From assembly GCF_048403405.1 (NCBI RefSeq), contig NZ_CP183129.1: a stretch of 64,000 nucleotides of DNA, one strand, 5' to 3'. The notes below the pieces were generated by a model. That model ran no database searches. It was given only the letters and a program-made list of their open reading frames with translations, and was not told where the DNA came from. The DNA comes from Escherichia coli (GTDB taxonomy: Bacteria > Pseudomonadota > Gammaproteobacteria > Enterobacterales > Enterobacteriaceae). This document shows, in pieces, positions 38,337 to 40,756 of this stretch. Positions within the stretch are counted from its first letter, which is position 1. Each line of letters opens with the position of its first letter. A program made the translations under genes and the position numbers.

Positions 38337-38507
38337 TTCCTGAACTTCAGAATCATCTTGCTGCTGCTTCGATTCAGCAAGGATAAAGGGTATGATAGTG
38401 AAAAGGGATAAAAGCATTGTCATCTGCGGCAGCTATGAGTAATGTTGGCCCTATCGAATAGCGGTTGCTTAAACGAATCCGACTCTCACATTATCAGGGG
38501 TATAAAA

Positions 38508-38837
38508 ATGGAAACTACCAAGCCTTCATTCCAGGACGTACTGGAATTTGTTCGTCTGTTCCGTCGTAAGAACAAACTGCAACGTGAAATTCAGGACGTT
38601 GAGAAAAAGATCCGTGACAACCAGAAGCGCGTCCTGTTGCTGGACAACCTGAGCGATTACATCAAGCCAGGGATGAGCGTTGAAGCAATCCAGGGCATCA
38701 TCGCCAGCATGAAAGGTGACTATGAAGATCGCGTTGACGATTACATCATCAAAAATGCCGAGCTCTCCAAAGAACGCCGCGATATCTCCAAAAAGCTGAA
38801 AGCTATGGGCGAAATGAAAAACGGCGAAGCGAAGTAA
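38508..38837 (+). CDS. yeeX: UPF0265 protein YeeX (DUF496)
   Basis: 109 aa from [33 protein letters not shown] track N-extension trimmed. Confidence 0.85.
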
Positions 38838-38850
38838 TTCCTGTTTTATT

Positions 38851-38880
38851 CAATGAGGGTTGCCCGGCAACCCTCATTGC
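38851..38880 (+). terminator. Rho-independent terminator after yeeX
   Basis: aatgagggttgcccggcaaccctcattg palindrome. Confidence 0.45.
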
Positions 38881-38937: not shown

Positions 38938-39150
38938 TTAGCGGCAGCCTTCTTCTGTATGCAGCAAGGCAAAAAGTTCTGTAACTCCATTGTTATTAAC
39001 CGCACTGGTTACTAACACGTTGTGCGCTCCAGCTTCCCGTAACCAACATTTCACCAAAGATATTTGTTCCATGCTGGCTAAATCTGCTTTGGTTACTACT
39101 CCAATGACCGGGTGATTCATGGCCCGGTAGGGCGTTTTTACCTCTAATTC
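38938..39150 (-). pseudogene. yoeF: YoeF-like C-terminal fragment of an EutP/PduV-family GTPase
   Basis: C-terminal about 70 aa of ORF 38938..39294 (VIGVVTKADL ... GVTELFALL); upstream part of that ORF is antisense to an IS66-like remnant. Confidence 0.4.
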
Positions 39151-39158
39151 CTGCTTCA

Positions 39159-39320
39159 GCGCTGAGATTCCTGCTTGTTGCCGGAAAAGCAGGCACCTGC
39201 CGTCTGAACGGTATCGATCCGGAAGCGTATCTGCGCCATATTCTGAGCATACTGCCGGAATGGCCCTCCAACCGTGTTGACGAACTCCTGCCATGGAACG
39301 TAGTTCTCACCAATAAATAA
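39159..39320 (+). mobile_element. IS66-family transposase C-terminal remnant
   Basis: Plus-strand translation GTCRLNGIDPEAYLRHILSILPEWPSNRVDELLPWNVVLTNK* resembles IS66 TnpC C-terminus; no intact element. Confidence 0.4.
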
Positions 39321-39734
39321 GCGTCAATATGGTGCTCCGTTGACGCTTACTTTAATCCGTTTTCTGAGCTTAGATTTTTCTGTTCCTACCCAGACCGTGG
39401 ATTTGGAATTCATTTTTTGTCAGGTCAATGCTAATCGTTAAAACGGCCATAACGCACCTCCACTGGAAGGTTTATCAGTAATATCCTACCGTTGCTTCAT
39501 GGTCGGGGCGTCCATTCCATTATTATCGGTTTTCCTTTCTGTTTATAAATGAAAACGCCAGCTGTATTCAGGCTGGCGTCAGGGGAAATGAAGCCTGTTG
39601 AGTGAGATTCACCGGTTCTGGTGCAGAAGCTGCAGATGGCGCAGGGTAAGGACATCTTCTCTTGCCTGCTTAATACAGGACAACAGTGCTGTTTCTGTGG
39701 TTAATGGCACTATACCCTGCATCACTGCATTGTC

Positions 39735-39929
39735 TTACAGCAACTGGTGAGGGCTGGCATAAGTTGCCGGTGTTTCGGTAGAGTCACGGTCATCCACCAC
39801 GCGGAGTGAATAACCGTTTTCAGCGGCCTTATTAATCAGTTCAGTGATATTAACACCATCAATGTCAACGACAATGTGCCCCATATCCAGCGCCTGTACG
39901 TTAACGCTGTCGGCTTCCAGTGTCATCAT
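39735..39929 (-). CDS. yeeW: Prophage protein YeeW
   Basis: 64 aa; start overlaps the cbtA reading-frame end (ATGA); CP4-44 synteny. Confidence 0.65.
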   Translation of the reverse strand: MMTLEADSVNVQALDMGHIVVDIDGVNITELINKAAENGYSLRVVDDRDSTETPATYASPHQLL

Positions 39930-40299
39930 TTCGCCTCCGGATACTTACCCAGGGTAATGTTATTTACCGTTCTGTAATTGTCGCGGGTCATCAGGCCGGT
40001 CGCCCTGCGAGCCCGGAGGATATCGATGCTGTTTATTAACTGAGAGCGGGTACAGGCGCTGAATCCCGGCTGGTCGGTAGCACCAGCGCGTATTTTTCCA
40101 CGAGAAAGTTCACCGCATCACACAGTGAAATGCCTGCCTCAATATGCTGCTCAATCACACGTTCATCGGCAAAAGGTGTGTCATTCTGTGTGAGGCCATA
40201 GTGCTGGTCCAGCAGTCGGGACAGCAGTATCTGCCAGATTTCAACAGGAGACGGGCGAGAACTGGCCGCCTGCCCGGGTAATACAGGTAATGTTTTCAT
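39926..40299 (-). pseudogene. cbtA: CbtA (YeeV) toxin gene, frameshifted
   Basis: N-terminal 72 aa match CbtA; intact ORF ends after 87 aa, while the remainder of the toxin is readable in another frame down to the yeeW start. Confidence 0.65.
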
Positions 40300-40387: not shown

Positions 40388-40756
40388 TTAATTTTTCATT
40401 TCGGGCGTCGGATAAACAGCCAGATAAACGTAACCACAACTGCTGAGGGTATCGGCTTTGCAGGTCAGCCCTTTTGCATACAGCGTGACGGTATGCTGAT
40501 GGCGGGGATTCAGTTCACCGCTGGTGAGCATGAGTTCCAGTTGTTTCATCAGCAGCGGAAAGGCCTGGTCCAGGTGGTACGCATCTGCATCGCTGAACAG
40601 GCCTCTGATACCGGCGCGGTCGGCAAGGTAATGCAGGCGGTTACCCTCCTGCACCAGACGTGCCCCGAAACAGGGCGTCACGGTGCAGGGCAGCCCCCAC
40701 CAGGGGCGGTCGTGATTGTCGTCGGGAAGTGTTGTCCCGGGGAGTGTGTCTGACAC
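40388..40756 (-). CDS. cbeA: CbeA (YeeU) antitoxin
   Basis: 122 aa; recalled CbeA sequence; directly upstream of cbtA. Confidence 0.85.
   Translation of the reverse strand: MSDTLPGTTLPDDNHDRPWWGLPCTVTPCFGARLVQEGNRLHYLADRAGIRGLFSDADAYHLDQAFPLLMKQLELMLTSGELNPRHQHTVTLYAKGLTCKADTLSSCGYVYLAVYPTPEMKN

What the first reader, a model, noticed from the sequence alone, without database searches (positions are those of the whole stretch)
38938..39320. IS66-like transposase remnant overlapping a yoeF-like GTPase fragment at the island/core junction
A plus-strand translation ending …LNGIDPEAYLRHILSILPEWPSNRVDELLPWNVVLTNK resembles an IS66 transposase C-terminus, while the minus strand encodes an EutP/PduV-like GTPase C-terminus. 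The overlapping 5' part of the minus ORF is probably spurious. This marks layered decay at the prophage boundary next to yeeX.
Basis: partly seen in the sequence, partly recalled or inferred. Interest (0 to 1): 0.3.

Follow-up and report, generated by a model that had tools for sequence, protein, structure and literature searches.

The report
Gene debris at CP4-44 island edge
This stretch is a dead scar at the edge of a well-known E. coli genomic island. It joins the tail of a lost propanediol-utilisation gene, a scrap of an island gene and stubs of two insertion sequences, and it is already annotated in E. coli K-12 as yoeF and yoeD, so it is ordinary.

Summary
The plus strand at 39192-39320 encodes the last 42 codons of an IS66-family transposase (Pfam PF13817, E 1e-15). 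It is followed by that element's 30-bp terminal inverted repeat (39321-39350). The minus strand at 38938-39120 encodes the last 60 codons of an EutP/PduV GTPase (PF10662, E 2e-12).

The tools add three points:
- **Origin of the GTPase piece.** It is not an island gene. It is the remnant of pduV, the last gene of the pdu operon, which still sits intact next to tmaR/yeeX in about 12% of complete E. coli genomes.
- **No real overlap.** The two homologous pieces are separated by 71 bp (39121-39191) from the 5' part of the island's DUF4942 gene.
- **A fourth layer.** The IS66 stub lies inside the stub of an IS110-family element (39351-39520).

The 118-codon minus ORF (UniProt YoeF) is therefore a chimera of antisense IS66, DUF4942' and 'PduV. 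The true core/island joint is 39120|39121, the same base where K-12's CP4-44 annotation ends. The same scar occurs in 3153 of 5426 complete E. coli genomes, and in K-12 it carries the names yoeD and yoeF.

Verdict: a real, non-functional and already annotated decay scar. Interest is low.

The parts
38508..38837 (+). tmaR (yeeX), an intact core gene convergent on the scar. Given for context.
   Evidence: Annotated in identical genomes. The ORF is listed.
38851..38879 (.). Perfect 13-bp hairpin between the convergent tmaR and pduV' genes. It is probably the shared transcription terminator.
   Evidence: Fold energy -22.9 kcal/mol, z-score -6. It is conserved in all strains aligned. The simple terminator scan did not call it.
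38938..39120 (-). pduV': the last 60 codons plus stop of the EutP/PduV GTPase gene, equal to residues 88-147 of the 147-aa protein. This is the core-side remnant of the pdu operon.
   Evidence: Pfam PF10662, E 1.7e-12. It is 180/183 nt and 59/60 aa identical to the intact pduV of strain A36, which lies at the same place next to tmaR. PGAP annotates exactly this interval.
39121..39191 (-). DUF4942': 71 bp from the 5' part (about codons 40-62) of the island's DUF4942 gene, fused in frame to pduV'. The core/island joint is 39120|39121.
   Evidence: The stretch is 70/71 identical to ES11-type genomes, where it continues up to the DUF4942 start codon. The ES11 stretch matches an intact DUF4942 5' end at 75.7% nt identity, E 5e-30, and matches its protein N-terminus MSDITIS.... 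The K-12 CP4-44 feature ends at this same base.
39192..39320 (+). IS66-family tnpC': the last 42 codons plus stop. This is yoeD in K-12.
   Evidence: Pfam PF13817, E 1.1e-15. It aligns to positions 2374-2532 of an intact 2532-bp ISEc23. The K-12 yoeD pseudogene has the same coordinates.
39321..39350 (+). Right terminal inverted repeat of the IS66-family element, ending ...GACGCTTAC.
   Evidence: The intact ISEc23 copy begins GTAAGCGT and ends ACGCTTAC at the aligned position. The repeat forms a hairpin with z-score -4.4.
39351..39520 (-). Transposase-proximal end of an IS110-family element. It comprises about 70 bp upstream of the gene plus the first 33 codons (MAVLTISIDLTKNEFQIHG..., ATG at 39450), and already carries an internal stop. 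The outer boundary is good to about 3 bp.
   Evidence: The stretch is 156/157 identical to the full-length (1369 bp, degenerate) element in strains ES11, UID2404240040 and UK_Dog. The full copy hits PF02371 at 5e-10 and PF01548 at 7e-6. The insertion point at the DUF4942 start codon was defined against strain B1.
38938..39294 (-). The 118-codon ORF annotated as YoeF. It is a chimera: residues 1-34 are antisense IS66, residues 35-58 are DUF4942', and residues 59-118 are 'PduV.
   Evidence: ORF listed. The sequence is exactly UniProt YOEF_ECO57 'Uncharacterized protein YoeF', and it is the K-12 yoeF CDS.
39609..39701 (-). DUF957' fragment, the first island gene remnant beyond the IS110 stub. It is followed by yeeW, cbtA (frameshifted) and cbeA. 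Given for context.
   Evidence: PGAP annotation of identical genomes. Paralogous island copies carry intact DUF957 and DUF4942 genes.

Best explanation
The interval is a non-functional composite scar at the junction between the E. coli chromosome backbone and the CP4-44-type genomic island. It records four successive events.

1. The ancestral locus carried the cbi-pdu cluster, with pduV as its last gene, convergent on tmaR. A deletion joined codon 88 of pduV to about codon 62 of DUF4942, the island's terminal gene. This made an in-frame DUF4942'-'pduV fusion and removed the rest of pdu on this side.
2. An IS110-family element inserted at the DUF4942 start codon and later decayed.
3. An IS66-family element (ISEc23/ISEc47-like) inserted into codon 34 of the IS110 transposase gene.
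4. A blunt illegitimate deletion removed the first 2373 bp or so of the IS66 element, most of the IS110 element and DUF4942 codons 1 to about 39. It left 71 bp of DUF4942', 159 bp of IS66 and 170 bp of IS110.

Nothing in the interval retains a complete coding capacity. The PduV piece lacks the P-loop and the DxxG motif. The IS66 piece is a single end without tnpA, tnpB or the catalytic part of tnpC. The 118-codon YoeF ORF is an accidental read-through of three unrelated pieces.

Shown: the identity and boundaries of each piece, the existence of the step-2 state in living strains, and positional orthology with an intact pdu operon. Inferred: the order of steps 3 and 4, the in-situ IS66 insertion, and the mechanism of the two deletions.
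For: - **Domain hits:**
- **Intact ancestral state:** an intact pduP-Q-S-T-U-V operon ends 100 bp from tmaR in strain A36, with 180/183 nt identity to the remnant. Intact pduTUV occurs in 644 of 5426 genomes.
- **Core origin of pduV':** pduV remnants with other breakpoints occur in island-free strains, for example directly beside cobU in strain 2015C-3905.
- **Precursor state:** pduV'-DUF4942'-full IS110-DUF957'-yeeW is found in ES11, UID2404240040 and UK_Dog, about 639 genomes.
- **DUF4942 homology:**
- **Exact joints:** the IS66 inverted repeat abuts IS110 sequence cleanly, and there is no microhomology at 39191|39192.
- **IS66 reference:** an intact 2532-bp ISEc23 defines the inverted repeats.
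- **Spread:** the same scar is in 3153 of 5426 genomes at 98.5% identity or more, including K-12, B, O157:H7 and SMS-3-5.
- **Existing annotation:** K-12 annotates yoeD, yoeF and the CP4-44 end at the same bases.
- **Bracketing:** the island is bracketed on its far side by a cbiP' fragment plus cobU.
- **Relaxed constraint:** in the remnants, nonsynonymous changes outnumber synonymous ones in most non-window-type copies, by 2:1 to 6:1, while the window's own copy shows 1 nonsynonymous and 2 synonymous.
Against: - No genome among 5426 keeps the predicted intermediate, a full IS66 at the window's insertion point. Steps 3 and 4 are therefore inferred from the clean inverted-repeat junction only.
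- The 118-codon ORF is open and nearly invariant in thousands of genomes, and K-12 lists it as a CDS. Expression has not been excluded here.
- The homology of 39121-39191 to DUF4942 rests on a 76%-identical paralogue and on the longer ES11-type sequence, not on a near-identical intact copy.
- The counts behind the relaxed-constraint argument are small.
Confidence: 0.9

Rival explanations
1. YoeF (the 118-aa ORF, or the 60-aa PGAP version) is a real, expressed small protein, for example a domesticated PduV C-terminal fragment or a de novo chimeric gene.
For: The ORF is open and conserved in 3153 genomes. It is annotated as a CDS in K-12 and named in UniProt. It is listed among uncharacterised y-ome genes (PMC11551758).
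Against: It is assembled from three unrelated pieces, one of them the antisense of a transposase gene. It lacks the G1 P-loop and G3 motifs that the intact PduV has at residues 8-15 and 42-45. No promoter-like site was found upstream on the minus strand inside 39295-39520. Its conservation is no better than that of the flanking non-coding DNA. Amino-acid changes accumulate in sister lineages. ORF length varies between strains, with versions of 118, 121, 60 and 44 aa.
Confidence: 0.04
2. The EutP/PduV-like fragment is cargo of the CP4-44 island, as gene-level labels for yoeF suggest, and the core/island boundary lies between it and tmaR.
For: yoeF is grouped with CP4-44 prophage genes in the literature (PMC11551758). 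It lies directly beside island and IS sequences.
Against: In 644 genomes the same sequence is the 3' end of an intact pduV that closes a full pdu operon at this chromosomal position. The fragment is present in strains with no island, directly next to cobU. The tmaR-pduV' spacer is identical in island-bearing and pdu-bearing strains. K-12's own CP4-44 feature stops at the pduV' edge.
Confidence: 0.03
3. The IS66 stub did not arise by insertion and deletion in place. It was imported already truncated, for example by recombination with another island copy that carried the IS110'/IS66' junction.
For: No genome holds the full-length intermediate. Paralogous islands and IS66 copies are plentiful in each genome, with up to 43 places. 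A paralogous island in strain B1 also carries an IS110-family fragment near its end.
Against: Both flanks of the stub (DUF4942' and IS110') are collinear with the ES11-type locus at 98.6-99.4% identity, 70/71 and 156/157 nt. The inverted repeat ends precisely on IS110 sequence, as a transposition product would. Other strains show fresh full-length IS66-family insertions with 8-bp duplications in this same stretch, so in-situ insertion is clearly possible here.
Confidence: 0.05

Closest known systems
yoeD and yoeF of E. coli K-12 MG1655 (b4642, b4538) at the right end of cryptic prophage CP4-44
   Same: The sequence and arrangement are the same. yoeD corresponds to window 39192-39320 and yoeF to window 38938-39294. 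The CP4-44 feature ends at the base equivalent to 39121. The window's 118-aa product is identical to UniProt YOEF_ECO57.
   Different: Nothing structural differs. The K-12 copy has a few substitutions, such as C to S and R to C in the PduV part. K-12 annotates yoeF as an ordinary CDS and does not annotate the DUF4942' and IS110' pieces.
pduV, the EutP/PduV-family small GTPase that is the last gene of the E. coli pdu operon (e.g. strain A36, WP_001189428.1)
   Same: The window's fragment sits at the same position, 100 bp from tmaR and convergent on it. Residues 88-147 are 59/60 identical.
   Different: The N-terminal 87 residues are gone, including the P-loop GPSQCGKT and the DTPG motif. So are all upstream pdu genes. 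Only the TKAD (G4) region and the C-terminus remain.
IS66-family insertion sequences ISEc23 and ISEc47 (2532 bp; tnpA, tnpB, tnpC; ends GTAAGCG.../...CGCTTAC)
   Same: The last 159 bp are 96-99% identical. This covers the TnpC C-terminal domain and the right inverted repeat.
   Different: About 94% of the element is missing, including the left inverted repeat, tnpA, tnpB and the catalytic part of tnpC. It cannot transpose.
IS110-family element, full-length but degenerate, at the same locus in strains ES11, UID2404240040 and UK_Dog_Liverpool
   Same: Window 39351-39520 is its transposase-proximal end, 156/157 identical over the 157 bp compared, 39351-39507.
   Different: About 1200 of 1369 bp are deleted in the window. 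Even the full copies are frameshifted with internal stops.

Membership tests
IS66-family insertion sequence | TnpC transposase C-terminal domain (Pfam PF13817) | tested here: met
   E 1.1e-15, 57.9 bits against a cut-off of 30, profile positions 4-39 of 39.
IS66-family insertion sequence | Terminal inverted repeats beginning GTAAGCG and ending CGCTTAC | tested here: met
   The right repeat is present at 39321-39350 and aligns to the end of an intact ISEc23, whose left end is GTAAGCGT. The left repeat is absent from the window.
IS66-family insertion sequence | Complete element with tnpA, tnpB, full tnpC and both ends | tested here: not met
   Only positions 2374-2532 of 2532 are present. This is a remnant, not a member capable of transposition.
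IS66-family insertion sequence | 8-bp target-site duplication | not testable with these tools
   The left end and its flank are deleted. Neighbouring full-length IS66-family insertions in other strains do show 8-bp duplications.
EutP/PduV small GTPase family | Match to Pfam PF10662 | tested here: met
   E 1.7e-12, but only profile positions 86-142 of 143.
EutP/PduV small GTPase family | P-loop (G1) and DxxG (G3) nucleotide-binding motifs | tested here: not met
   The intact PduV has GPSQCGKT at residues 8-15 and DTPG at 42-45. The fragment starts at residue 88 and keeps only TKAD.
EutP/PduV small GTPase family | Position within a microcompartment (pdu) operon | tested here: met
   Positional orthology to the last gene of the pdu operon in strain A36 and 644 genomes. 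The operon itself is absent from the window.
IS110-family insertion sequence | DEDD N-terminal domain (PF01548) and Transposase_20 domain (PF02371) | tested here: inconclusive
   The full-length degenerate copy in ES11 hits PF02371 at 5e-10, which is above the cut-off. It hits PF01548 at 7e-6, 26.3 bits, just under the cut-off of 29. The window keeps only the first 33 codons, including the ISIDL motif region.
DUF4942 island gene | Pfam PF13708 domain | tested here: not met
   The domain covers residues 87-275 of the intact protein. The window keeps only about residues 40-62 upstream of it. Assignment rests on nucleotide and protein homology of the N-terminal region.
CP4-44 cryptic prophage / island right boundary | Same junction as annotated in K-12 MG1655 | tested here: met
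   The K-12 feature ends at 2078748, which maps to window 39121.

The most novel reading that the evidence does not exclude
The short decayed stretch just inside the island edge (IS110' to DUF957', about 420 bp) may be a preferred landing site for IS66-family elements. Five independent insertions occur in different lineages: the window's remnant, one in C288, two in 23CRST007 and one in TW10590. All five have the same orientation. The three whose two flanks are both preserved show distinct 8-bp duplications, the window's is inferred from one end, and TW10590's cannot be read because its left end is missing. This would point to an unrecognised target or orientation preference of IS66-family transposition. 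The alternative is simply that insertions are tolerated in junk DNA.
Probability: 0.12. Interest if true: 0.35.

Novelty: already known. Interest (0 to 1): 0.12.

Why it matters
It matters little biologically, because this is a fossil. It has three modest practical uses:
- It shows that YoeF, still carried as an uncharacterised protein in K-12, UniProt and y-ome lists, is an accidental chimera of three unrelated fragments and should be treated as a pseudogene.
- It fixes the CP4-44 boundary to one base and shows that the island sits exactly where the cbi-pdu cluster was, bracketed by pduV' and cbiP'. This ties the loss of propanediol utilisation in most E. coli to this island.
- The nested states (intact pdu; pduV' with a full IS110 element; pduV' with an IS66 stub; other breakpoints) give a ready-made set of rare genomic changes for ordering E. 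coli lineages.

Tried and rejected
- **39121-39191 as one end of the IS110-family element.** I first held this reading, because the stretch is contiguous with that element in UK_Dog and ES11. A local BLAST and a protein alignment showed it is the 5' part of DUF4942, and that the IS110 element starts only at the DUF4942 start codon. Rejected.
- **IS110 outer end at 39507.** I first took this. That point is only where IS30 sits in UK_Dog. Comparison with strains B1 and TW10590 moved the end to about 39520.
- **Full-length IS66 intermediate.** I searched for it at the window's insertion point with a synthetic junction query. None was found in 5426 genomes. The search instead revealed independent IS66-family insertions nearby.
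- **Rfam scan of the ES11 locus for an IS110-associated non-coding RNA.** Nothing credible was found.
- **Promoter and terminator scan.** It found nothing informative for the ORF and missed the obvious tmaR/pduV' hairpin.
- **Literature searches** for yoeF, yoeD, CP4-44 with pdu, and pduV with remnant. These returned only gene lists and no paper describing the pduV origin or the chimeric make-up.
- **Not done.** Scans of the large metagenome and genome collections, structure prediction and the homologue searches were not used, because the local E. coli collection already answered the question.

Full report
**Where the window lies.** The window is E. coli chromosome. It is 100% identical over more than 25 kb to several complete genomes, for example NZ_AP022098.1. 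The finding lies downstream of dacD, sbmC, yeeA and tmaR (=yeeX, 38508-38837), at the edge of a CP4-44-type island. That island continues with DUF957', yeeW, cbtA (frameshifted), cbeA, yeeT and yeeS.

**Checking the observation.** It matches Pfam DDE_Tnp_IS66_C at E 1.1e-15. The minus-strand ORF 38938-39294 (118 aa) matches Pfam PduV-EutP at E 1.7e-12. That match covers only its C-terminal half, profile positions 86-142 of 143. Both matches are real and the coordinates are accurate.

**The IS66 piece.** Megablast against 5426 complete E. coli genomes shows that window 39192-39350 is the multi-copy part. It is 153-157/159 identical to the 3' ends of ISEc23, ISEc47 and an unnamed IS66-family copy.
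- An intact ISEc23 on plasmid pAVS0051-A is 2532 bp long. It starts GTAAGCGT and ends ACGCTTAC.
- The window holds its positions 2374-2532. That is 42 codons plus the stop of tnpC (39192-39320) and the 30-bp right inverted repeat (39321-39350). The repeat also forms a hairpin.
- The left end, tnpA, tnpB and the catalytic part of tnpC are gone.

**The GTPase piece is a pduV remnant, not island cargo.** Genomes differ in where their similarity to the window stops.
- In strain A36 the similarity stops at 39120. The sequence there is the 3' end of an intact 147-aa pduV gene that closes a full pduP-Q-S-T-U-V operon, 100 bp from tmaR and convergent on it.
- The window is 180/183 nt and 59/60 aa identical to that gene's last 60 codons, and the spacer towards tmaR is identical.
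- Intact pduT-U-V is present at this position in 644 of 5426 genomes.
- Island-free strains keep pduV remnants with other breakpoints. In strain 2015C-3905 a 44-aa remnant lies directly beside cobU.
- The fragment starts at PduV residue 88. It therefore lacks the P-loop (residues 8-15) and DTPG (residues 42-45) and keeps only the TKAD region.
- In most non-window-type remnant copies, amino-acid-changing substitutions outnumber silent ones by 2:1 to 6:1. The window's own copy shows 1 and 2. This fits relaxed constraint, though the numbers are small.

**The 71 bp between the two pieces.** Window 39121-39191 is neither pduV nor IS66.
- It is shared at 70/71 nt with ES11-type genomes. There it continues for another 112 bp to an ATG, giving a 121-aa ORF that PGAP calls EutP/PduV family.
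- I first read this stretch as an end of the neighbouring IS110-family element. A local BLAST corrected that. It matches the 5' end of an intact DUF4942 gene of a paralogous island in strain B1 at 75.7% over 181 nt, E 5e-30.
- The protein N-termini also align, both starting MSDITIS.
- So the island's terminal gene DUF4942, cut at about codon 62, is fused in frame to pduV cut at codon 88. The core/island joint is 39120|39121.
- K-12's curated CP4-44 feature ends at exactly the equivalent base, 2078748.

**The IS110 layer.** To the right of the IS66 repeat, window 39351-39520 is 156/157 identical (over the 157 bp compared, 39351-39507) to the transposase-proximal end of a 1369-bp IS110-family element.
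- In ES11, UID2404240040 and UK_Dog_Liverpool that element lies full-length but degenerate between the DUF4942 start codon and DUF957'.
- Its conceptual translation hits Transposase_20 at 5e-10 and DEDD_Tnp_IS110 at 7e-6.
- The window keeps about 70 bp upstream of the gene and the first 33 codons, with the ATG at 39450 on the minus strand.
- About 639 genomes have the full-length state. 3153 have the window state.

**Reconstruction.**
1. A deletion fused DUF4942' to 'pduV and removed pdu on this side. The far side of the island is bracketed by a cbiP' fragment and cobU, so the island occupies the place of the cbi-pdu cluster.
2. The IS110-family element inserted at the DUF4942 start codon. This state is seen in living strains.
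3. An IS66-family element inserted in codon 34 of the IS110 transposase gene. Its repeat abuts IS110 sequence cleanly at 39350|39351.
4. A deletion with no microhomology at 39191|39192 removed about 2373 bp of IS66, about 1200 bp of IS110 and DUF4942 codons 1 to about 39.

Steps 3 and 4 are inferred. No genome keeps the full IS66 at that site. Other strains, however, show fresh full-length IS66-family insertions with 8-bp duplications within the same 420 bp.

**Consequence for the ORF.** The 118-aa ORF has three parts. Residues 1-34 are antisense IS66, residues 35-58 are DUF4942', and residues 59-118 are 'PduV. The sequence is exactly UniProt YOEF_ECO57, 'Uncharacterized protein YoeF'. In K-12 it is the yoeF CDS, and the IS66 stub is the yoeD pseudogene. 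The literature I could search only lists yoeF among uncharacterised or CP4-44 genes. pdu is known to be variably present in E. coli and enriched in adherent-invasive strains (PMC4509574).

**Comparison with known things and verdict.** Every component belongs to a known family, and the locus itself is already annotated in the reference genome. The small additions here are the DUF4942' and IS110' layers, the chimeric nature of YoeF, and the pduV orthology that puts the GTPase fragment on the core side of the junction. This is a real but ordinary, non-functional decay scar. Novelty is 'already known' and interest is low. The only mildly unusual side observation is the cluster of same-orientation IS66-family insertions in this stretch in different lineages. 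Tolerance of insertions in junk DNA probably explains it.

Noticed in passing
L015 6088-8619; L016 2547-5000 and 5425-7935; L013 1610-3004; window 39192-39350: Five independent IS66-family insertions (ISEc23, ISEc22-like and the window's older remnant) fall within about 420 bp of the IS110'/DUF957' stretch in different strains. All have the same orientation. The three whose two flanks are both preserved have distinct 8-bp duplications (GACATTAT, TACAAATC, GCAGATGG); the window's (TTTAATCC) is inferred from one end, and TW10590's is not determinable because its left end is missing. This could be a hotspot, or simply tolerated insertions in junk DNA.
   Followed up: partly
L010 5860-6225, L002 5239-5604, L011 5860-6225 (minus strand): In ES11/UK_Dog-type genomes the DUF4942 start codon and first 61 codons are fused in frame to the last 60 codons of pduV. 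This gives a 121-aa ORF that PGAP names 'EutP/PduV family microcompartment system protein'. It retains whatever promoter drove DUF4942.
   Followed up: partly
window 39926-40299 (cbtA) and 40388-40756 (cbeA): The CbtA toxin gene is frameshifted in this window and in identical genomes, while the CbeA antitoxin gene is intact.
   Followed up: no
window 39121 to beyond 64000; NZ_AP022098.1 1941689-2018993 (L006, L017): The island in this genome is a mosaic of about 77 kb lying exactly between pduV' and a cbiP' fragment plus cobU. It contains further IS66 debris, IS150, ISL3, a dynamin/patatin/RdcB module, paralogous dgo and aspA/dcu genes, and fragments of clbP and a thioesterase (pks-island debris).
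   Followed up: partly
window 38851-38879: A perfect 13-bp hairpin lies between the convergent tmaR and pduV' genes (-22.9 kcal/mol, z-score -6). It is conserved in pdu-bearing and island-bearing strains and is probably a shared terminator. The consensus terminator scan did not report it.
   Followed up: partly
window 39183-39191: PGAP's 'transposase domain-containing protein' pseudogene starts at 39183, 9 nt upstream of the true IS66 homology start at 39192. Those 9 nt belong to DUF4942'.
   Followed up: yes
window 38442-38507: The mechanical ORF for tmaR starts at ATG 38442 (131 aa), but the annotated gene starts at 38508 (109 aa). K-12 annotates a tiny gene, yoeJ, just upstream of tmaR.
   Followed up: no
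L014 1648-1830: A paralogous island next to kpsF in strain B1 also ends with an IS110-family transposase fragment just beyond its intact DUF4942 gene. IS110-family elements may be recurrent residents of the ends of this island family.
   Followed up: no
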